Notes: generated by a model not told the origin, from the letters alone. 64,000 bases of DNA from Candidatus Uhrbacteria bacterium (GCA_016929435.1 JAFGIV010000022.1:26918-90917), one strand, 5' to 3'. Shown: positions 3,617 through 14,992, counted from the stretch's first letter. Program-made: numbers and translations.

Positions 3617-4696
3617 TCAAATTGTCCTGAACGGCAGGCGCCTAATGTCCTGCGTCAGGTCAAATACCTTGCCGACTCCCCGCCTTGAGAAGGCGGTTGA
3701 GAGGCTGAAAACGTCGGCAGCGCCGTAGTTAACGGCGTAACCGATATCCTCCATTGATCCTATGGTGACTATACTCACCGGCTCAAACGCCGATCCGGAA
3801 GTGAATCCGGTCATCGCCTCGACTCCAAAAACCGACTCCCTCCAGTGGCCGTCCTGGGTTCCGGCACCGTAATTTCCGTTCTCCACCGGAACCTTATGGC
3901 CATCATAATACGCCCCACCTACCTGCTCGAAAGCCGCCAACGCCTCGGTCCCAACGAAATGGGTATCAGCCCCCGGGTTGTAAAGGGAGGGGTTTTTGAG
4001 AAGACCCATGGCTTCCCAAAAAATACCGAATCCCAAGGAGTGTCCCATCTCGTGGAAAGCCACATTAGACAGGACGCCCTCCGCCAGCATCTGATCGGCA
4101 TCACTGTCATCTATGACGATGATGCTGACTGCCGGCAGAAGACTCGACCCTCGCCAAACGCAGGGGCCGGAATACCCCAAAATGCCTCCTGCCCCGTCAA
4201 TCGGGGCGATCTGGACAATTATTACGATATCGTCGATATCGTAGTCAATCCGGGGATGGGGTAACCCGTCACAGTATCCGGCCTCTATCGGGCTGGCGGA
4301 AAAACTGGCGGTCGGCAAATCTCCCACGATGATTCGCTCCCAACGAGCGGATGCCTCGTCGAAGGCGGATTCCGCGGACCTGCTGACTTGAGACACGAAA
4401 ATGAAATCAATATCGTATTCCCCACCTATGTCCGTATCCGCATCCGTATCGGTATCCGTATCGGCGTCCGCATCGGCATCAGCGTCAGCATCGGCATCCG
4501 AGCCGCCTAGGTCAACGCAGAACCCGGAAGCGCAGGTCAAATCCCCATCACAAGCCCCGCCTTCCGTGCACTGGCAGCCTTCGCTGCCGATCGCACAACC
4601 CCCTTCTCCGCTGCCCTCATCCTCATCACAGGCCGAAAGGCCAATCACCATCAGAAACATCGCCACGGACAGAATCGTTACGTTCAGGTTTTGCAT
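3617..4696 (-). CDS. leishmanolysin-like (peptidase M8 family) zinc metalloprotease lipoprotein with an N-terminal Cys-rich EGF-like module and a (DA)n/(DT)n linker
   Basis: Start at MQNLNVTILSVAMFLMVIGLSAC (lipobox) with RBS GGAGGGG upstream. HEMGHSLGF matches the M8 HExxHxxGF motif, with a distal His/Met-turn candidate (...DGHWRESVFGVEAMTG). N-terminal module C-x5-C-x-C-x5-C-x5-C-x4-C, then DADADADADADTDTDTDADTD. Confidence 0.6.
   Translation of the reverse strand: MQNLNVTILSVAMFLMVIGLSACDEDEGSGEGGCAIGSEGCQCTEGGACDGDLTCASGFCVDLGGSDADADADADADADTDTDTDADTDIGGEYDIDFIFVSQVSRSAESAFDEASARWERIIVGDLPTASFSASPIEAGYCDGLPHPRIDYDIDDIVIIVQIAPIDGAGGILGYSGPCVWRGSSLLPAVSIIVIDDSDADQMLAEGVLSNVAFHEMGHSLGFGIFWEAMGLLKNPSLYNPGADTHFVGTEALAAFEQVGGAYYDGHKVPVENGNYGAGTQDGHWRESVFGVEAMTGFTSGSAFEPVSIVTIGSMEDIGYAVNYGAADVFSLSTAFSRRGVGKVFDLTQDIRRLPFRTI
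4431..4500. repeat. hexanucleotide microsatellite (GTATCC/GCATCG-like units) encoding the (DA)n/(DT)n linker
   Basis: tccgtatccgcatccgtatcggtatccgtatcggcgtccgcatcggcatcagcgtcagcatcggcatccg. An imperfect 6-nt periodicity lies inside the M8 protease gene. Confidence 0.8.
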
Positions 4697-4759
4697 TTCA
4701 CCCCTCCTATGGGTATGTGGGCGTTCCATTATGGAAACGCCATTTTCAAAGACGCCGAC

Positions 4760-9520: not shown

Positions 9521-9598
9521 GGTCCCATCGTCTAGCCCGGTCCAGGACGTCTCCCTCTCACGGAGAAAACAGGGGTTCGAATCCCCTTGGGACTACCA
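9521..9598 (+). tRNA. tRNA-Glu (anticodon CUC), CCA encoded
   Basis: Hand-folded cloverleaf: acceptor GGTCCCA/TGGGACT; anticodon stem TCTCC/GGAGA with loop CTCTCAC; T arm AGGGG-TTCGAAT-CCCCT. Closely resembles bacterial tRNA-Glu (GTCCCCTTCGTCTAG...CAGGGGTTCGAATCCCCT...). Confidence 0.85.
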
Positions 9599-9602
9599 GA
9601 AG

Positions 9603-9632
9603 CACTCACCGAATGGTGGGTGTTTTTATTTT
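9603..9632 (+). terminator. rho-independent terminator after tRNA-Glu
   Basis: Stem cactcacc/ggtgggtg (one G-U) with loop gaat, then TTTTTATTTT. Confidence 0.6.
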
Positions 9633-9694
9633 GTTCGCCTTTAAAAAACCGTGATATAGTTTTTGCGTAATCTAAGGCCTGTTTTCTTGGCTAT

Positions 9695-10081
9695 ATGTCT
9701 ATATCCATAAAAAATATTTTTACCGCCCATAACAATCGAAGCGCTTCTTTTCGGAAAAAAGCTCTTGGTTATTTTCTTGTCTTTCTGGGTGCGTTTCCAG
9801 CGGTTGCATTTGCTTTAGCCTTCGTATTTTGTTTGTTCTTTCCGAATAATCACCTGATGAGGACATACATCATGGTCGATTTTGCTCTTGTCGAAGTCGT
9901 TGGCCCTATGGCATACGTGTTGCTATTGCTGTTGGCTTTGGCTGTGTTTTCTGCGCCGTTTTTCCTGTTGGTCTATATTGGCTTTCTTCTTGTTGGTTCG
10001 AAGAAAAAGAAACCGTCGGGCCAAGCCGTGCTGTTCGCGGTGTTTGCCTATTTTATCTGCTTTTCCGTTTTTTTTTTCTGA
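9695..10081 (+). CDS. small polytopic membrane protein (3-4 TM), AT-rich islet
   Basis: Hydrophobic segments; stop TGA overlaps the next ATG (TGATG), so the two are translationally coupled. Confidence 0.5.
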   Translation: MSISIKNIFTAHNNRSASFRKKALGYFLVFLGAFPAVAFALAFVFCLFFPNNHLMRTYIMVDFALVEVVGPMAYVLLLLLALAVFSAPFFLLVYIGFLLVGSKKKKPSGQAVLFAVFAYFICFSVFFF

Positions 10082-10823
10082 TGACTGAGAATCTGAATAC
10101 GAAATTTGACAGGAAAGTCTCTGGAATGAAAAGTCTTAATACTGGAATCGGGCATCCTATCTTGCCCGAATTTGATGTCATTAACATTTCCAAGTATGTG
10201 AAGTACGATGACATTGTCATTTATCAGGGAGATAGCTACGGGTACAAGTATACGGGTGATGCCTATAGCCAGATCGCCTTGGACCTTGACGTTGAAGGTC
10301 GTACTCTGTTTGTCAGGCGCTCTGAGATGGAGACCTATGTCGTACTCTGTTTGTCAGGCGCTCTGAGATGGAGACCTATTACGATGTCGAAATAGGTCAT
10401 GTGAAGAACAGGTATCCTTTATACCCGGCCGGCACCAAGAAACTGACCATCGAAATCACCGTTCCTGACCTTGACCGCATCATTGTTGAGGGTGGACATG
10501 TCAGCCTAGAGGGTTTGGAAGTGAATGACCTGCGGATTGACCTAAATAAGCGGTTCGTTGAGCTGAAAGGGGATTTGGTGGTGAGAGACGGTTTTGTCCT
10601 GAATGCTAAAGGGGGAGTGGTAGATTTGGAGGGTTCCGCAAAAAACCTAGAAATAAATTCCGGGGACTGTTGGATTGATATGGAGAATTTTACGGCTGAG
10701 ACCGCCTCAATAAACGCCGTTAACACCAGTCGTTTGAACGTTTACGTAACGGAAAACATGGAGGTCATTTCCGGGGTTAATTCTGGGATAGTCAAACATT
10801 TCGATTTCCATCAGGAAGAGTAA
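10081..10823 (+). pseudogene. putative-adhesin/beta-helix-like (DUF2807/DUF4097-like) gene split into two ORFs (10081..10395 and 10368..10823) by a frameshifting 41-bp tandem duplication
   Basis: Removing one 41-bp copy joins ...GRTLFVRRSEMETY to YDVEIGHVKNRYPLY... in frame, giving a single 233-aa protein. Confidence 0.6.
10298..10379 (+). repeat. perfect tandem duplication, 2 x 41 bp (gtcgtactctgtttgtcaggcgctctgagatggagacctat)
   Basis: Copy 10298-10338 is identical to copy 10339-10379. 41 is not a multiple of 3, so the duplication causes a frameshift. Confidence 0.95.
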
Positions 10824-10841
10824 CCGTGTTTGAAAAGACGA

Positions 10842-10953
10842 CGTTCCAGCACGAAAAGCACTACCACCCGCATCCAGCACGGGGAGGCTGTCTCCAATAG
10901 CTGGAGACGGCCTTTAAAGCCTCGAAACAAAAACACCCGAAAGGGTGTTTTTG
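10842..10953 (+). repeat. intergenic palindromic repeat element copy A (~110 bp: hairpin GGCTGTCTCCAatagcTGGAGACGGCC plus terminator CACCCgaaaGGGTG-T5)
   Basis: ~88% identical to copy B (13580..13691); the core palindrome also occurs at 12390..12428. Sits 19 nt after a stop codon. Confidence 0.85.
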
Positions 10954-11118
10954 TGTGCTGGGTTATTTTAATTGCGAAGGGGGGGTGCTTTATGGTATTG
11001 TGCAAATAACATATTTCAATCTAGAAAATAATTTTCGCTTCGTTAGTGGCGGTGCTTTATATCGTTATTCGAAGCTATGTCGAGGGAATTATTAATAATA
11101 TACTTAACCATTGCAAAT

Positions 11119-11724
11119 ATGAAAAATAATATTTTTATTAGAGTGATGTTGGCCACAATGGGCCTCTTTTCTCTATCTTTGTTCTTTTTGGTCTCCAATG
11201 TATACGCATATGTAGCAAGTGGATACACCCGCCCTTCAGGAAACGTAAGTTTTTACTTGCATGGCGCACTGGTGAATGTGGGGTGGCAGGGAGCGATAGA
11301 CAACGCTCGTAGCGAATGGAACGGGGCAGGATCTTCCTTTACGTTCTCTCAAAGCGGTACCGCTACAAGAAGCCCGAGCTTGGTTCAAAGCAGCACGACT
11401 GATGGGTATAACGACATCGGAGCACTTTCGTTGGACCTCAGTTATGTTGGATTTACATCTTCTGTTGCTAGTGGAACATCGATCATTGAAACGGACACAG
11501 CTTATAACTTGGAGAAGTCCTTTGATGTAAATCCGAATATTTATCAGTATGATGTTGAGAGTGTTGCTGTACATGAATTGGGCCACTGGTTACATTTGGA
11601 CGAAACACAGTCGTGGCGATGCTTTGCGTCTCCGCCAAGTATGTGCGGATCAGTTTCTATGGGGAGCACATATATGCGTTCTATAGAATCCGACGACATT
11701 AACGGCATTCAATATATCTATTAA
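11119..11724 (+). CDS. secreted metzincin-like zinc metalloprotease (snapalysin M7 / matrixin M10-like)
   Basis: Signal peptide MKNNIFIRVMLATMGLFSLSLFFLVSNVYA. Zinc motif VAVHELGHWLHLDE, a Cys pair, Met-turn candidate STYM and C-terminal DDINGIQYIY (matrixin DDIxGIQxLY signature). Confidence 0.6.
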   Translation: MKNNIFIRVMLATMGLFSLSLFFLVSNVYAYVASGYTRPSGNVSFYLHGALVNVGWQGAIDNARSEWNGAGSSFTFSQSGTATRSPSLVQSSTTDGYNDIGALSLDLSYVGFTSSVASGTSIIETDTAYNLEKSFDVNPNIYQYDVESVAVHELGHWLHLDETQSWRCFASPPSMCGSVSMGSTYMRSIESDDINGIQYIY

Positions 11725-11725
11725 T

Positions 11726-12337
11726 ATGAAGAAAACAACATTAATTGTAGCGGGATTGGCGGTTATAGTGTCTCTTACGACGCTGATGTACGGACTTGAT
11801 GGCAAAGACCAGGGAGGCAGCGCAACCCCACAGGGCGACGGAACGAGATTGTTGGTCAATGCCTTGCGTACAGAGCCTGATTTTAGGGTTGATACCCTTG
11901 ATTCCAGTATGATAGTTCAGGGGGAGGTGATTGCGGTCGATGAACTGTCTGACCAACCCTTAAGCCACAATACGCGTATAACCATTTCTGTCGACCAGTT
12001 GATTAAGGGGGATGATGTCAGCGAAACGATAGAGGTTTATGCGTTAGGTGGCGGCGGTGTAGAGGTTGTAGGAGATAACGAGAAAATAGGTCTTGTTGCA
12101 GGTGACGTCGGCATTTTCTTCCTTGGTTGGATGCCTGTGTCTGAAGGGTTCTACACATTTTTTGGCGGTTCAAGGGGCGTTTATGTTGAAAAGGACGCAC
12201 ATATTCGTAATTGGGGTGGAAAATCAATTAAAACTGATAGGTTTGTGCGCGAGATTGAGAAAGTGCTAGCTGACCCTGATGATAGAGAACATCAAAAGAC
12301 TTTGGGAGAGATGATCCGTGATAAGGAGTCTGAATAG
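11726..12337 (+). CDS. secreted partner protein P1 (signal peptide; paralogous to 12898..13527)
   Basis: MKKTTLIVAGLAVIVSLTTLMYG signal peptide; starts 1 nt after the protease stop. Shares the core ...V.G.VI......V.V...IKGD....TV...GG with the P2 paralog. Confidence 0.5.
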   Translation: MKKTTLIVAGLAVIVSLTTLMYGLDGKDQGGSATPQGDGTRLLVNALRTEPDFRVDTLDSSMIVQGEVIAVDELSDQPLSHNTRITISVDQLIKGDDVSETIEVYALGGGGVEVVGDNEKIGLVAGDVGIFFLGWMPVSEGFYTFFGGSRGVYVEKDAHIRNWGGKSIKTDRFVREIEKVLADPDDREHQKTLGEMIRDKESE

Positions 12338-12389
12338 AAGGTGTAAGAGGATACTACTTTTTCTTGGGACTACCACTTACATAAAGCGC

Positions 12390-12428
12390 GAGGAGGCCGT
12401 CTCCAATAGCTGGAGACGGCCGTTAGGG
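12390..12428 (+). repeat. repeat element copy C (core palindrome only, perfect 11-bp stem GGCCGTCTCCA atagc TGGAGACGGCC)
   Basis: Identical core to copy A. Lies immediately upstream of, and truncating, the second protease ORF; an in-frame TAG sits inside the repeat. Confidence 0.8.
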
Positions 12429-12430
12429 TC

Positions 12431-12895
12431 TTGTTGGTTACGCCTTTAGGTTCTGCGCTTGCTTGTTCCCAGGATTCATTGTTTTGGACTAGCGCCGTTG
12501 ATAGCGGGGAGATACGTTGGGGCGGTTCCACAAAGTATTCGTGGGAGTGGCAAGATGCGAGGGGTGCATGGAACCAGTTGAGTCCCGTTGATATTCTTCC
12601 TGATACAATATACACATATGAGGATTTAAAAATTTCGGACGTTGACAGCCATTACTTGGGATATTGGGGGGCATACATTCCTTCGTTGGGGACTGATGAT
12701 TTGGAGCTTAATGAATATTTTATGGATGGGGGCTCATACGGAAACAGGGCACATATCGTCTCTCATGAACTTGGCCGTGCTTTAGGTCTCGACCATGTTG
12801 ATGGTTGCGATCATGTGATGGATGATTATCAATATTGCACTTCAGTCACACCGTCATCAAACGATGAATGTAGCTACGATGAATTATGGAACTAG
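12431..12895 (+). CDS. degenerate paralog of the metzincin-like protease (5'-truncated, no signal peptide, zinc-motif H->R); possible pseudogene
   Basis: The ORF begins at TTG with no upstream ATG, and an in-frame stop lies in the repeat just upstream. Motif HIVSHELGRALGLDHVDGCDH is snapalysin-like HExGHxLGLxDH, but the second His is Arg (CGT where His would be CAT). Confidence 0.5.
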   Translation: MLVTPLGSALACSQDSLFWTSAVDSGEIRWGGSTKYSWEWQDARGAWNQLSPVDILPDTIYTYEDLKISDVDSHYLGYWGAYIPSLGTDDLELNEYFMDGGSYGNRAHIVSHELGRALGLDHVDGCDHVMDDYQYCTSVTPSSNDECSYDELWN

Positions 12896-12897
12896 GG

Positions 12898-13527
12898 ATG
12901 AAAGGCAAAATTATAGGCGGGGGGGTACTGCTTCTTGGCGTGCTGGGTATTGGTCTTCACGCTAATGTTTTGAGGGTGCCGGGTATTGTTAACCAGGTTG
13001 GCACTGTTGCAATCGCTAACTTTTCGGATGATGCCGAACTCGTAGGAGCGGCACATAACGTTTTTGTTGGTAAGGTAATAAAGAAACAGGACAGCTTTGT
13101 TGAGGGCAGGCTTGCCTTCACTCCTTATGAGGTTGTCGTCCTTTCCAATATCAAAGGTGATTTAGAAGGAACGGTAACGGTCCTTCAAAATGGGGGGTAT
13201 AAAGATGGGTTCTTGCAAATCTTGCATGATTCCGAATCGCCTGATGGGAGACTTCCATTTCCTGAAGTCAATCAATTATATCTGTTTTCAAGCAGACATA
13301 ATGTTGAGGCCGATGTCCACTACCTTCTTCCTACGATTCATGCTATGGAAAAGGTGAGTTCGAATACAGAATTTGGTGCCCAGGCTGACATTGCCGCCAT
13401 AACCAAGAGTGTTCGCATAGAAGAGCTGAGGGAAGCATATAAAAATGAGGTAGTTCCTTTGGCGGATAGGGAGCACGGTAGTGATTTCAATAGCTACAAT
13501 AAAACTGTACCGCAAAAGATTGAGTAG
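12898..13527 (+). CDS. secreted partner protein P2 (paralog of P1)
   Basis: Start chosen at MKGKIIGGGVLLLGVLGIGLHA (signal peptide), 3 nt after the upstream stop. Similar to P1. Confidence 0.5.
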   Translation: MKGKIIGGGVLLLGVLGIGLHANVLRVPGIVNQVGTVAIANFSDDAELVGAAHNVFVGKVIKKQDSFVEGRLAFTPYEVVVLSNIKGDLEGTVTVLQNGGYKDGFLQILHDSESPDGRLPFPEVNQLYLFSSRHNVEADVHYLLPTIHAMEKVSSNTEFGAQADIAAITKSVRIEELREAYKNEVVPLADREHGSDFNSYNKTVPQKIE

Positions 13528-13579
13528 GTTACGGGTTTGTGACAGAACTGATGTCGCACTGCCGTCTTGAAAAATCACC

Positions 13580-13691
13580 GCTCCAGCACGAAGGACACTG
13601 CCGCCCACATCCAGCACGGGGAGGTTGTCTCCACTATCTGTAAACGGCCGTTAAAGCCTCGAAACAAAAACACCCGAAAGGGTGTTTTTTG
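13580..13691 (+). repeat. repeat element copy B (~110 bp), at the islet boundary
   Basis: gctccagcacgaaggacactgccgcccacatccagcacggggaggttgtctcc...aaacacccgaaagggtgtttttt aligns to copy A; its palindrome is partly degraded. Confidence 0.85.
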
Positions 13692-13723
13692 CCTTTTTGC
13701 CGCGGTTTGTTCCAGGGTAGGCC

Positions 13724-14992
13724 CTACACCAGAAGCTCCGCGGCCCGTTGGGGGTCGGCCATCAGCTCCCGGGTCACCTCCTCCATGCGCATGCCGCGCG
13801 AACCCTTTATCAGGACGATGTCGCCGGAACGCATCCGTCCCTGGACGAACATGCCGGCCCTTTCCGTATCCGGAAAATGGAACACCTTTTCCCTGGGCAT
13901 TCCGGCCTCCAGGGCGGCCCGTTCCGTCTCTGTCGTCCTCTCCCCCACCAGAACCAACGTGTCCAGGCCGATTTCCGCCGCCTTGCGGCCGATTTCCCCG
14001 TGAAGCCCGGGTGAAGACCCCCCCAAATCGAGCATATCGCCCAAAACCGCAATGCGTCCGGACTCCGGGCCAACCGGCAGGTCCCCAAGAACGTCCAGGG
14101 CCGCGGATACGGATTTGGGGGAGGCGTTGTAGGTGTCGTCTATCAGGACCGTCCGCTTGATTCCGCCCAGACAACGGACCCTGCCGGGCAAGGGACGGAA
14201 ACTGCGGAGATTTTCGGCGATCTCCACCAGGTTCATTCCCTTGACCAGTCCCACCGCCATGCCGACCAAGGCGGCGTAGGCCACCTGACGGCCCAAAACC
14301 CCGGGAACGAACACCGGGACCGTGCTGCCGAAAGCCGATACCTTGAAACGCATGCCGCAATCCCCCTCCGGATCAAAAGCGTAGCCGAGCGATTCCGGCA
14401 GGGCGCGAACGTCGGCCTCCCCGTCAAACCCGTAGCTCACGACCCGACCGGCGGCCCTTTCCCGCATCTTCCAGACCCGCTCGTCGTCCCGGTTCAGGAT
14501 GGCCACCCCGTCCTTGCCCAAAGACTCTACCATCACCCGCTTTTCGCGAAAAACCTCGTCAATCGTCCTGAAAAGCTCCAGGTGCGATTGGGCACAGGCC
14601 GTCACCACGCCAATGGCCGGCGGGGCGATGCCGGTAAGCTTCTCGATATCCCCGGGACGATCCGCCGCCATCTCCAGCACCAGGATCGGCGGCAGTTCCG
14701 CCTTCCCGATATTGGCCCGAAACCAGGCCATAACCGCCACCTTAAGCCATTGCCAAGCGGATTTCCCCCCGCCCGGCAACCCCAAGACGGCCAAAGGCAT
14801 CCCGATTTCCGTATTCATGTTCCGGGGGCTGACCCTGATCGGAAAGCCTCCGGACAGGACGGCCCGAACCGCCTCCCTGGCCGACGTTTTTCCCACTGAA
14901 CCGGTAATCCCGATGATCTCCGGATTTCCGGACCGAATCAGGTATTTCCTGGCGCTTTTGGCCAAAAAAACCTCCAAGGACTTTCTGTACAT
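13724..14992 (-). CDS. murF: UDP-N-acetylmuramoyl-tripeptide--D-alanyl-D-alanine ligase MurF
   Basis: Mur ligase P-loop GITGSVGKTS, DDTYNASP motif and C-terminal LIKGSRGMRMEEV. Confidence 0.8.
   Translation of the reverse strand: MYRKSLEVFLAKSARKYLIRSGNPEIIGITGSVGKTSAREAVRAVLSGGFPIRVSPRNMNTEIGMPLAVLGLPGGGKSAWQWLKVAVMAWFRANIGKAELPPILVLEMAADRPGDIEKLTGIAPPAIGVVTACAQSHLELFRTIDEVFREKRVMVESLGKDGVAILNRDDERVWKMRERAAGRVVSYGFDGEADVRALPESLGYAFDPEGDCGMRFKVSAFGSTVPVFVPGVLGRQVAYAALVGMAVGLVKGMNLVEIAENLRSFRPLPGRVRCLGGIKRTVLIDDTYNASPKSVSAALDVLGDLPVGPESGRIAVLGDMLDLGGSSPGLHGEIGRKAAEIGLDTLVLVGERTTETERAALEAGMPREKVFHFPDTERAGMFVQGRMRSGDIVLIKGSRGMRMEEVTRELMADPQRAAELLV

What the first reader, a model, noticed from the sequence alone, without database searches (positions are those of the whole stretch)
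10842..13691. Family of ~110-bp palindromic intergenic repeats that double as terminators and delimit gene cassettes
Copies A (10842-10953) and B (13580-13691) are ~88% identical. Each contains a long palindrome GGCyGTCTCCA-atagc-TGGAGACGGCC followed by a classic terminator CACCC-gaaa-GGGTG-T5. Copy C (12390-12428) retains only the perfect palindrome. Each sits 19-53 nt after a + strand stop codon, resembling REP/MITE-like elements or cassette-boundary sites. A and B are direct repeats flanking the 2.6-kb protease block, so they could mediate its deletion or amplification. Copy C disrupted a gene. Antisense ORFs 10811..11005 and 13575..14360 share the translated-repeat peptide KTPFRVFLFRGF, confirming the repeat.
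Basis: seen in the sequence. Interest (0 to 1): 0.6.

Follow-up and report, generated by a model that had tools for sequence, protein, structure and literature searches.

The report
Repeated tRNA-Glu trailer scars bounding cassettes
Three copies of a ~120-bp hairpin-plus-terminator sequence separate small foreign gene blocks inserted next to a tRNA-Glu gene in an uncultured Uhrbacteria (CPR) genome; they look like junction scars of recombination at the tRNA gene, not a genome-wide REP/MITE family, which makes this a fairly ordinary feature.

Summary
The repeat is real. Copy A is 10830-10952 and copy B is 13567-13689. They share 106/123 nt, and the last 37 nt are identical. Copy C (12363-12432) keeps a perfect 27-bp palindrome but has no terminator. 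B's palindrome is decayed, contrary to the finding.

All copies lie on the + strand, 6-39 nt after stop codons. They sit inside a 4.1-kb low-GC island (44-46% against 55-62%) between tRNA-Glu(CTC) and murF. This gene pair is adjacent in 38 Patescibacteria loci, and the closest relatives lack the island.

The new observation is that copy C begins with an exact 13-nt copy of the tRNA-Glu 3' end. A has ACTACCA and B has ACTGCCG at the aligned position. The terminator stem matches tRNA-Glu trailers of relatives.

The gene blocks between the copies share no other DNA similarity. No further copy was found in the rest of the window, in about 1 Mb of related loci, or in the genome, metagenome, viral, phage and plasmid collections.

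Other Patescibacteria show the same pattern of a displaced tRNA-Glu 3' fragment plus trailer copy. One carries a large serine recombinase there.

Best reading (about 0.48): these are att-type junction scars of serial, integrase-less cassette accretion, and they now serve as terminators. The REP/MITE and integron attC readings are not supported.

The parts
9521..9598 (+). tRNA-Glu(CTC) with encoded CCA. Its last 13 nt, CTTGGGACTACCA (9586-9598), are repeated in copy C.
   Evidence: ARAGORN and Rfam; sequence. The gene and its promoter motif GGGTCTGGACA are orthologous to those of L003 and L004.
9599..9632 (+). Native tRNA trailer T0, an intrinsic terminator (CACCGAATGGTG stem plus T-run). It marks the left edge of the low-GC island.
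   Evidence: Terminator scan; folds at -17.6 kcal/mol. Similar trailers follow tRNA-Glu in L004 and L015.
9633..10823 (+). Block u0 (GC 0.44). It holds a 128-aa membrane-protein ORF (9695-10081) and a DUF2807 gene (10081-10823) that is split by a perfect 41-bp tandem duplication (10298-10379).
10830..10952 (+). Copy A. Its modules are: 9-mer TCCAGCACG at 10845 and at 10873; tRNA-like ACTACCA at 10860-10866; palindrome at 10886-10912; bidirectional terminator at 10929-10952.
10953..12362 (+). Block u1 (GC 0.44). It holds a putative promoter (TTGCGA 10972-10977, 18-nt spacer, TG-n-TATTGT 10996-11001; read by eye and not flagged by the scan), a matrixin-like M10 protease (11077-11724) and a partner protein (11726-12337).
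   Evidence: Pfam; sequence. The partner is 100% identical to a Candidatus Uhrbacteria MAG protein.
12363..12432 (+). Copy C. It has an exact 13-nt tRNA-Glu 3' end (12363-12375) and a perfect palindrome (12395-12421). The terminator module is missing. The copy is fused to the 5'-truncated protease 2.
12431..13527 (+). Block u2 (GC 0.46). It holds protease 2 (12431-12895), which keeps only the tail of its signal peptide (..LLVTPLGSALA|C), and partner 2 (12886-13527). The two protease/partner pairs are only about 23% identical.
13567..13689 (+). Copy B. Its modules are: 9-mers at 13582 and 13610; ACTGCCG at 13597-13603; a decayed palindrome at 13623-13649; an intact bidirectional terminator at 13666-13689, lying 34 nt from the murF stop codon.
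13724..14992 (-). murF, at the right edge of the island. It is convergent with the island genes and probably shares B's terminator.
   Evidence: Pfam; homologues.

Best explanation
A, B and C are diverged copies of one sequence: the 3' end of tRNA-Glu(CTC) followed by a trailer. The trailer carries two 9-nt direct repeats, a 27-bp palindrome and a tRNA-type bidirectional intrinsic terminator.

The copies mark the junctions of three small, foreign, integrase-less gene blocks (u0, u1, u2). These blocks have accumulated between tRNA-Glu and murF, a junction that is variable across Patescibacteria.

The copies arose when DNA circles or segments recombined at the tRNA-Glu 3' end or its trailer. This could have been site-specific integration, or Campbell-type recombination through the shared trailer. 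Each event leaves a displaced copy of the tRNA 3' fragment plus trailer, so the copies are att-type junction scars (tandem accretion).

Because a tRNA trailer carries the tRNA's terminator, each scar also works as a transcription stop. A ends the u0 transcript. B stops both u2 and the convergent murF. C lost its terminator in a deletion that also removed the 5' end of protease 2, so u1 and u2 are now probably one transcription unit.

Shown: the repeat anatomy, the match to the tRNA, the island, its absence from relatives, and the analogous structures elsewhere. Inferred: the recombination mechanism, the order of events and the terminator activity.
For: 1. Copy C starts with an exact 13-mer equal to the last 13 nt of the adjacent tRNA-Glu.
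   - It is on the same strand and ends exactly at CCA.
   - None of 300 shuffles reached the observed score.
   - About 6e-5 matches of that terminal 13-mer are expected by chance in 4 kb on the same strand.
   - The A-C homology begins precisely there. A has ACTACCA and B has ACTGCCG at the aligned position.
2. The copies lie in a 4.1-kb block of 44-46% GC that begins right after the tRNA terminator and ends 34 nt from murF. The flanking DNA is 55-62% GC.
3. Relatives with 77% and 72% identical MurF (L003 and L004) have murF and tRNA-Glu directly adjacent, with no island. Of 94 related loci, 38 carry tRNA-Glu(CTC) next to murF, with variable spacing and orientation.
4. u0, u1 and u2 share no DNA similarity other than the repeats, and the two protease/partner pairs are only about 23% identical. 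The 84-88% identical repeats are therefore not leftovers of a segmental duplication.
5. The repeat's terminator stem CACCC/GGGTG matches the tRNA-Glu trailer terminators in this window (CACC..GGTG) and in L015 (CACCC..GGGTG).
6. The same pattern occurs independently in other Patescibacteria.
   - L056 (Uhrbacteria): a 152-nt unit of tRNA 3' end plus trailer is repeated at 96% identity around a membrane-protein block, and a third tRNA fragment is present.
   - L070: 9 nt of the tRNA end plus a terminator are repeated 1.9 kb downstream.
   - L074 shows a similar repeat.
   - L047: a 501-aa large serine recombinase is flanked by 98.8% identical inverted copies of the tRNA-Glu trailer.
7. The island genes are decaying. 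DUF2807 is frameshifted by a 41-bp duplication and protease 2 is 5'-truncated. This fits old, immobilised insertions.
Against: - No integrase or other recombinase was found in the island or among about 45 large ORFs of the window.
- The sequence directly after the intact tRNA (T0) resembles the native trailers of relatives. The simple serial-integration model predicts an element-derived arm there.
- In A and B the tRNA-like core is only 7 nt, and in B it is mutated. Only C gives a statistically solid tRNA match.
- A lies nearer the tRNA than C, yet its tRNA fragment is shorter, so a simple 'youngest nearest the tRNA' order does not fit.
- A and B also share 30 nt to the left of the core. Explaining this requires related element arms.
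- The 37/37 identity at the 3' end, against 80% in the 5' part (P about 0.004 under uniform decay), needs selection or gene conversion as an additional assumption.
- No relative was found in which tRNA-Glu is directly followed by this particular trailer.
Confidence: 0.48

Rival explanations
1. The copies are a purely local, functional 3'-UTR module with no connection to mobile DNA. A stabilising hairpin plus intrinsic terminator was copied within the island by illegitimate or unequal recombination. Selection and gene conversion keep the copies similar. The match to the tRNA is coincidental.
For: - The hairpins and terminators are strong.
- Each copy follows a stop codon in the sense orientation.
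- The terminator part is 37/37 identical while the rest is 80% identical.
- Three of the five substitutions in the palindrome arms of A and B preserve pairing only as G-U in + strand RNA.
- No recombinase is present.
Against: - The 13-nt match ends exactly at the tRNA CCA and sits exactly at the edge of the A-C homology, which is unlikely by chance.
- B's hairpin has decayed although it follows a gene just as A's does.
- C has no terminator.
- The homologous protease/partner pair in L006 uses an unrelated terminator.
- Parallel duplications of tRNA fragment plus trailer occur in other genomes.
Confidence: 0.2
2. This is an integron-like cassette system anchored at a tRNA gene. The palindrome-bearing unit is the recombination site of a recombinase encoded elsewhere in the genome (for example a large serine recombinase). 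That enzyme inserts and excises promoter-plus-gene blocks downstream of tRNA-Glu.
For: - The blocks are sharply bounded, unrelated to one another, co-oriented, and each ends with the same unit.
- The 27-bp perfect dyad is flanked by two 9-nt direct repeats that occur only in these units.
- The palindrome is nearly invariant between A and C (1/27 mismatches) while the neighbouring 28 nt differ by 29%.
- A large serine recombinase sits between copies of the tRNA-Glu trailer in L047.
- Several Patescibacteria loci carry integrase-less blocks flanked by trailer copies.
Against: - No recombinase is present in the 64 kb.
- Only three copies are known, all at one locus, and none was found in any public collection.
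- The homology edges do not fall at the centre of the palindrome.
- The dyad has an odd-length (5-nt) centre.
- The trailers of L047 and L056 share no sequence with this unit.
Confidence: 0.12
3. This is the first reader's idea: a REP/BIME- or MITE-like dispersed intergenic repeat family. It is spread by a transposase (RAYT or IS-derived) and happens to be clustered here.
For: - The units are extragenic palindromes located 3' of genes.
- The repeats are far more similar to one another than the surrounding DNA is.
Against: - There are three copies within 2.9 kb and none in the other ~60 kb of the window or in 4 kb of adjoining contig.
- There are no terminal inverted repeats or target-site duplications. 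The CCAGCAC/GTGCTGG pairing seen in A is absent from B.
- No transposase was found in the window.
- No copies were found in any collection searched.
Confidence: 0.07
4. The palindrome is an operator or upstream activating site for a dimeric regulator of the protease genes. It is intact upstream of protease 1 (A) and protease 2 (C) and has decayed where no gene follows (B).
For: - The pattern of conservation fits: A and C are intact while B has 6/27 changes.
- An ArsR-type regulator gene lies 2.8 kb upstream.
Against: - In A the palindrome lies upstream of a terminator and about 60 nt upstream of the putative -35 element.
- In C there is no promoter.
- The homologous protease pair in L006 has no such site.
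- This idea does not explain the tRNA fragment or the shared terminator.
Confidence: 0.05

Closest known systems
tRNA-gene-linked genomic islands with att direct repeats, including tandem accretion and integrase-less cis-mobilisable elements (CIMEs); from my own knowledge of the ICE/CIME and tRNA-island literature
   Same: - The island abuts the 3' side of a tRNA gene.
- Its GC content is atypical.
- It is absent from relatives.
- A direct repeat of the tRNA 3' end lies inside the island.
- Several junction copies sit in tandem, separating cargo blocks.
- The blocks lack an integrase, as CIMEs do.
   Different: - The blocks are tiny (1.1-1.4 kb).
- No integrase lies anywhere nearby.
- The repeated unit extends about 90 nt beyond the tRNA-like core and about 30 nt before it.
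- The tRNA's own trailer looks native rather than element-derived.
Rho-independent (intrinsic) bidirectional terminators
   Same: A and B carry a CACCC-GAAA-GGGTG stem flanked by an A-run and a T-run. B sits between convergent genes.
   Different: The unit is much larger than a terminator. It includes a second 11-14-bp hairpin and direct repeats with no obvious role in termination.
REP/BIME elements and MITEs
   Same: They are extragenic palindromic repeats that lie 3' of genes.
   Different: - This unit is not dispersed.
- It has no inverted termini and no target-site duplications.
- There is no RAYT or transposase nearby.
- The unit is 3-4 times longer than a REP.
Integron attC sites (for example the 120-130-bp VCRs of Vibrio chromosomal integrons) and CALIN arrays
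   Same: - The repeats are about 120 bp and roughly 85% identical.
- They lie at the 3' end of each co-oriented cassette.
- The cassettes are unrelated to one another.
   Different: - There are no R''/R' (RYYYAAC/GTTRRRY) inverse cores.
- The short palindrome is perfect, whereas attC is an imperfect dyad over the whole site with extrahelical bases.
- The blocks hold two genes and have their own promoter.
- There is no IntI.
Xer-dependent dif/pdif modules (IMEX elements)
   Same: Short dyad-symmetric sites bound small gene modules that carry no recombinase of their own.
   Different: - The site is 11-5-11, not 11-6-11.
- It does not resemble dif.
- There is no GC-skew switch at the locus.
- All sites lie in direct orientation.

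Membership tests
tRNA-linked genomic island / tandem att-site accretion | Lies immediately 3' of a tRNA gene | tested here: met
   The island starts after the terminator of tRNA-Glu(CTC) 9521-9598.
tRNA-linked genomic island / tandem att-site accretion | A direct repeat of the tRNA 3' end at an island boundary | tested here: met
   CTTGGGACTACCA occurs at 9586-9598 and at 12363-12375 on the same strand. In A only 7 nt match, and B is degenerate.
tRNA-linked genomic island / tandem att-site accretion | Atypical composition and absence from related genomes at the same locus | tested here: met
   GC is 0.44-0.46 against 0.55-0.62 in the flanks. L003 and L004 have murF and tRNA-Glu adjacent with no island.
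tRNA-linked genomic island / tandem att-site accretion | An integrase gene within the island or next to the tRNA | tested here: not met
   No recombinase Pfam hit was found in the island ORFs or in about 45 window ORFs. CIME-type elements also lack an integrase.
tRNA-linked genomic island / tandem att-site accretion | Excision or integration activity (circular junctions, empty sites) | not testable with these tools
   This needs the reads of SRR13394437 or strain comparisons. The Logan contigs simply break at the 37-nt identical stretch.
Intrinsic terminator | A GC-rich stem-loop followed by a T-tract at the 3' end of a transcription unit | tested here: met
   A and B have the CACCC-GAAA-GGGTG stem plus T5-6, folding at -18.3 and -13.5 kcal/mol. 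C lacks it. Activity was not measured.
REP/BIME | Many dispersed copies per genome | tested here: not met
   There are 0 copies outside 10830-13689 in the 64 kb. The full genome is not available.
REP/BIME | An associated RAYT (Y1 transposase) | tested here: inconclusive
   None was found in the window. The rest of the genome was not seen.
MITE | Terminal inverted repeats and target-site duplications | tested here: not met
   The unit ends are not inverted repeats in both copies, and the flanks carry no duplication.
Integron attC / CALIN | R''-L''...L'-R' architecture with RYYYAAC / GTTRRRY cores and extrahelical bases | tested here: not met
   Only GTTAAAG and GTTAGGG are found 3' of the palindrome. 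There is no complementary R'' core, and the stem is perfect.
Integron attC / CALIN | An IntI integrase and attI nearby, or promoterless single-ORF cassettes | tested here: not met
   There is no tyrosine recombinase. The blocks hold two genes, and u1 has a plausible promoter of its own.
Xer dif/pdif module | An 11-6-11 XerC/XerD site; for chromosomal dif, location at the GC-skew switch | tested here: not met
   The dyad is 11-5-11. Cumulative GC skew falls steadily across the locus.
Rfam RNA families / tRNA pseudogene | A match to a curated covariance model or to a tRNA-Glu profile | tested here: not met
   There is no Rfam hit at A, B or C even at E<=10. nhmmer with a 38-sequence tRNA-Glu profile finds nothing there.

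The most novel reading that the evidence does not exclude
In Patescibacteria, the trailer of tRNA-Glu(CTC) next to murF is a dedicated docking site. Small integrase-less gene blocks encoding secreted proteases and membrane proteins are inserted and shuffled there by a recombinase acting in trans (for example a large serine recombinase). The 27-bp palindrome with its flanking 9-nt repeats is the recombination site. This would be a tRNA-anchored functional analogue of an integron.
Probability: 0.12. Interest if true: 0.65.

Novelty: new member of a known kind. Interest (0 to 1): 0.3.

Why it matters
If the reading is right, the locus is a small, readable record of how a reduced CPR genome acquires and then loses accessory secreted-protein genes at a tRNA gene. 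It would also point to the murF/tRNA-Glu(CTC) junction as a recurrent insertion site across Patescibacteria, a group whose mobile elements are poorly described. In practical terms, the 123-bp direct repeats break short-read assemblies, and they could delete or amplify the protease block. As it stands, the evidence describes an ordinary class of feature: island junction repeats that carry terminators.

Tried and rejected
- **Exact palindrome 19-mer** against 185,579 species genomes and IMG/VR: 0 hits.
- **Degenerate 23-mer** against the JGI metagenomes: one chance hit inside a coding region (L011), and one terminator hairpin 26/27 identical to the palindrome in a 40%-GC organism (L012). I judged L012 coincidental or unexplained.
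- **Terminator module, 5' module and loop-free hairpin pattern** against IMG/VR: 0 hits.
- **Copy A by blastn** against the phage and plasmid collections: no match.
- **Six-frame translation of copy A** as a bait against 5.8 billion proteins, to catch ORFs called over other copies: nothing. This test is weak, because even the organism's own copies were not recovered.
- **nhmmer profile of A, B and C** against the window and about 1 Mb of related loci: only the known copies.
- **Rfam**, at gathering thresholds and at E<=10: nothing at the repeats.
- **Repeat unit as a decayed tRNA-Glu gene.** The palindrome arm CGTCTCC-N7-GGAGA equals the tRNA anticodon stem, and a pairwise alignment of the tRNA to B reached the observed score in only 4/500 shuffles. 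For A it was 103/500 and for C 37/500. tRNA-Glu profile and single-sequence nhmmer searches found nothing. I rejected this idea as unsupported.
- **Segmental duplication of protease/partner units:** rejected, because there is no DNA similarity and the proteins are about 23% identical.
- **The homologous protease/partner pair in L006** carries no such repeat.
- **attC, dif and MITE architectures** were checked by eye against the sequence and are not met.
- **Attempts to reach more of the 98.9-kb source contig** returned only short Logan contigs.


Full report
**Observation**

The repeats exist.
- The repeat finder reports a 123-nt direct repeat at 10830-10952 (A) and 13567-13689 (B), 86% identical.
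- It also reports a 57-nt family that adds a third copy at 12369-12425 (C).
All 17 differences fall in the first 86 nt, and the last 37 nt are identical.
- The 27-bp palindrome is perfect in C and has one mismatch in A. That mismatch is a G-U pair in + strand RNA.
- The palindrome has no other match in the 64 kb at up to 3 mismatches, against 0 expected.
- B does not keep the palindrome. It has six changes in 27 nt, and the hairpin is no longer part of the predicted fold.
- A and B carry the same A-run/CACCC-GAAA-GGGTG/T-run hairpin. This is a bidirectional intrinsic terminator by sequence. C lacks it.
- The shared antisense peptide is just the translated terminator.

**Context**

- The window comes from a Patescibacteria (CPR) genome. 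One island protein is 100% identical to a protein of a 'Candidatus Uhrbacteria bacterium' MAG, and the MurF homologues are all Patescibacteria.
- The host DNA is 55-62% GC. The stretch from about 9600 to 13690 is 44-46% GC.
- This stretch begins directly after the terminator of tRNA-Glu(CTC) (9521-9598, +). It ends 34 nt from the stop codon of the convergent murF gene (13724-14992, -).
- The stretch holds three blocks.
  - u0 has a small membrane protein and a DUF2807 gene broken by a perfect 41-bp tandem duplication. Removing one copy restores a 233-aa ORF.
  - u1 has a matrixin-like protease and a partner protein.
  - u2 has a second protease and partner.
- The two protease/partner pairs are only about 23% identical.
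- Each block is followed by a repeat copy in the same orientation, 6-39 nt after the stop codon.
- Apart from the repeats, the blocks share no DNA similarity. The repeats are therefore sharply bounded islands of 84-88% identity in otherwise unrelated DNA. They are not residues of a segmental duplication.

**Link to the tRNA**

- Copy C begins with CTTGGGACTACCA, the exact last 13 nt of the adjacent tRNA-Glu including the encoded CCA, on the same strand.
- None of 300 shuffles reached that alignment score. The chance of that terminal 13-mer recurring on the same strand within 4 kb is of the order of 1e-4.
- The A-C homology starts exactly within this segment. A has ACTACCA and B has ACTGCCG at the aligned position.
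- The repeat's terminator stem (CACCC/GGGTG) resembles the terminators that follow tRNA-Glu in this window (CACC..GGTG) and in relatives (L015: CACCC..GGGTG; L004: CACC..GGTG).
- The unit therefore reads as tRNA-Glu 3' end, then about 70 nt holding two TCCAGCACG repeats and the palindrome, then a tRNA-type terminator.
- The 9-mer TCCAGCACG occurs four times in the window, and only in A and B.

**Comparative evidence**

- Relatives with 77% and 72% identical MurF (L003 and L004) have tRNA-Glu(CTC) directly downstream of murF, with no island.
- A scan of species genomes with a MurF profile returned 80 Patescibacteria loci.
- The closest species genome (L015, 54% MurF identity) has the same convergent arrangement as the window.
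- Several loci show the same kind of structure, built from unrelated sequence.
  - L056 (Uhrbacteria) has a 152-nt unit of tRNA 3' end plus trailer repeated at 96% around a 264-aa membrane-protein block. It also has a third tRNA 3' fragment with its own terminator, and no integrase.
  - L070 has GGGCTACCA plus a terminator repeated 1.9 kb downstream.
  - L074, L050 and L069 have shorter versions.
  - L047 has a 501-aa large serine recombinase lying between 98.8% identical inverted copies of the tRNA-Glu trailer.
- With only 18 other tRNA genes as controls, I cannot claim that this pattern is specific to tRNA-Glu.

**Is it a dispersed family?**

Nothing supports this.
- There are no further copies in the window or in about 1 Mb of related loci.
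- There are none in the species genomes, IMG/VR, or the phage and plasmid collections.
- The metagenome scan gave only one look-alike terminator hairpin, in an unrelated 40%-GC contig.
- The homologous protease/partner pair in another CPR genome (L006) has an unrelated terminator.
- No Rfam family matches.
- No transposase or integrase domain was found in about 45 large ORFs of the window.
- The source genome outside this window could not be examined. This is the main gap.

**Interpretation**

The best-supported reading is that the copies are att-type junction scars. Each time a DNA segment recombined at the tRNA-Glu 3' end or trailer, a displaced copy of 'tRNA 3' fragment plus trailer' was left behind. 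Because the trailer contains the tRNA's terminator, each scar also terminates the block upstream of it. B additionally serves the convergent murF.

Copy C and the 5'-truncated protease 2 are most simply explained by one deletion running from inside the unit into the signal-peptide coding region.
- A stop codon lies in the palindrome loop.
- The ORF keeps only ..LLVTPLGSALA|C of a signal peptide.

The decay of DUF2807, of protease 2 and of B's palindrome fits old, immobilised insertions.

Weak points:
- There is no recombinase.
- The tRNA's present trailer looks native.
- The tRNA-like core is short in A and B.
- A and B also share 30 nt upstream of the core.
- The non-uniform divergence (0/37 against 17/86 differences; P about 0.004) needs selection on the terminator or gene conversion.

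I put this reading at about 0.48. The rivals are:
- a purely local functional 3'-UTR/terminator module (0.20);
- a recombinase site of an integron-like, tRNA-anchored cassette system (0.12, the most novel reading);
- REP/MITE (0.07);
- an operator for the protease genes (0.05).

**Comparison with known systems, and verdict**

The locus meets the positional, compositional and direct-repeat criteria of tRNA-linked islands and tandem accretion of integrase-less elements. It fails the integrase criterion. It also fails the defining features of REP/BIME, MITE, integron attC and dif/pdif sites.

It is a new example of a known kind of feature, in a poorly studied phylum. Interest is modest (0.3). It would rise if read-level or strain-level data showed the blocks moving at these sites.

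Noticed in passing
window 10298-10379: A perfect 41-bp tandem duplication frameshifts a DUF2807 (adhesin head-like) gene. Deleting one copy restores a single 233-aa ORF at 10081-10823. This is either a very recent inactivating mutation or an assembly artefact.
   Followed up: yes
L047 5081-6840 (Patescibacteria MAG CAZXIF010000145.1): A 501-aa large serine recombinase (Resolvase + Recombinase + Zn_ribbon_recom domains) lies directly downstream of tRNA-Glu(CTC). It is flanked by 84-nt, 98.8% identical inverted copies of the tRNA trailer. This could be an invertible or integrated element at the same tRNA.
   Followed up: partly
L056 13145-14704 (Candidatus Uhrbacteria UBA11717): The 3' end of tRNA-Glu(CTC) plus a 135-nt trailer is repeated at 96% identity around a 264-aa membrane-protein gene. 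A third tRNA 3' fragment (TTCCCGGTGGGGTCACCA) has its own terminator. No integrase was found in the 6 kb towards murF.
   Followed up: partly
L050 8343-8470, L069 8746-9070 and L074 5529-5827: Short GC-rich inserts (140-210 nt) lie between an intact tRNA-Glu and a displaced copy of its T-arm/acceptor 3' part plus trailer. L050 also has a tRNA-Glu pseudogene interrupted by GC-rich palindromic inserts. Their nature is unknown.
   Followed up: no
In the window and in L015 the tRNA is convergent with murF, whereas in L003 and L004 it is co-directional.
   Followed up: partly
L012 2621-2651 (JGI contig Ga0233344_1000579, ~40% GC): A bidirectional terminator hairpin, GGCCGTCTCCAATAGCTGAAGACGGCC, is 26/27 identical to the palindrome, loop included. 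It sits between convergent genes of an unrelated organism. It is probably a coincidence but remains unexplained.
   Followed up: partly
window 9548-9566 compared with 12397-12415: The palindrome arms and loop length (CGTCTCC-N7-GGAGA) equal the anticodon stem of the adjacent tRNA-Glu. A pairwise alignment of the tRNA to the post-CCA part of copy B is marginal (4/500 shuffles reached the observed score). tRNA-Glu profile searches find nothing at the repeats.
   Followed up: yes
window 3617-4729 (-): A leishmanolysin-like (Peptidase_M8) gene lies 5 kb upstream of the island. This makes three metalloprotease genes of two families within 10 kb of this small genome.
   Followed up: no
L001 and L002 (Logan SRR13394437): Short-read contigs of the same organism break exactly inside the 37-nt stretch that is identical in A and B. 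The 2758-nt contig L001 therefore has matching ends and could be mistaken for a circular element.
   Followed up: yes
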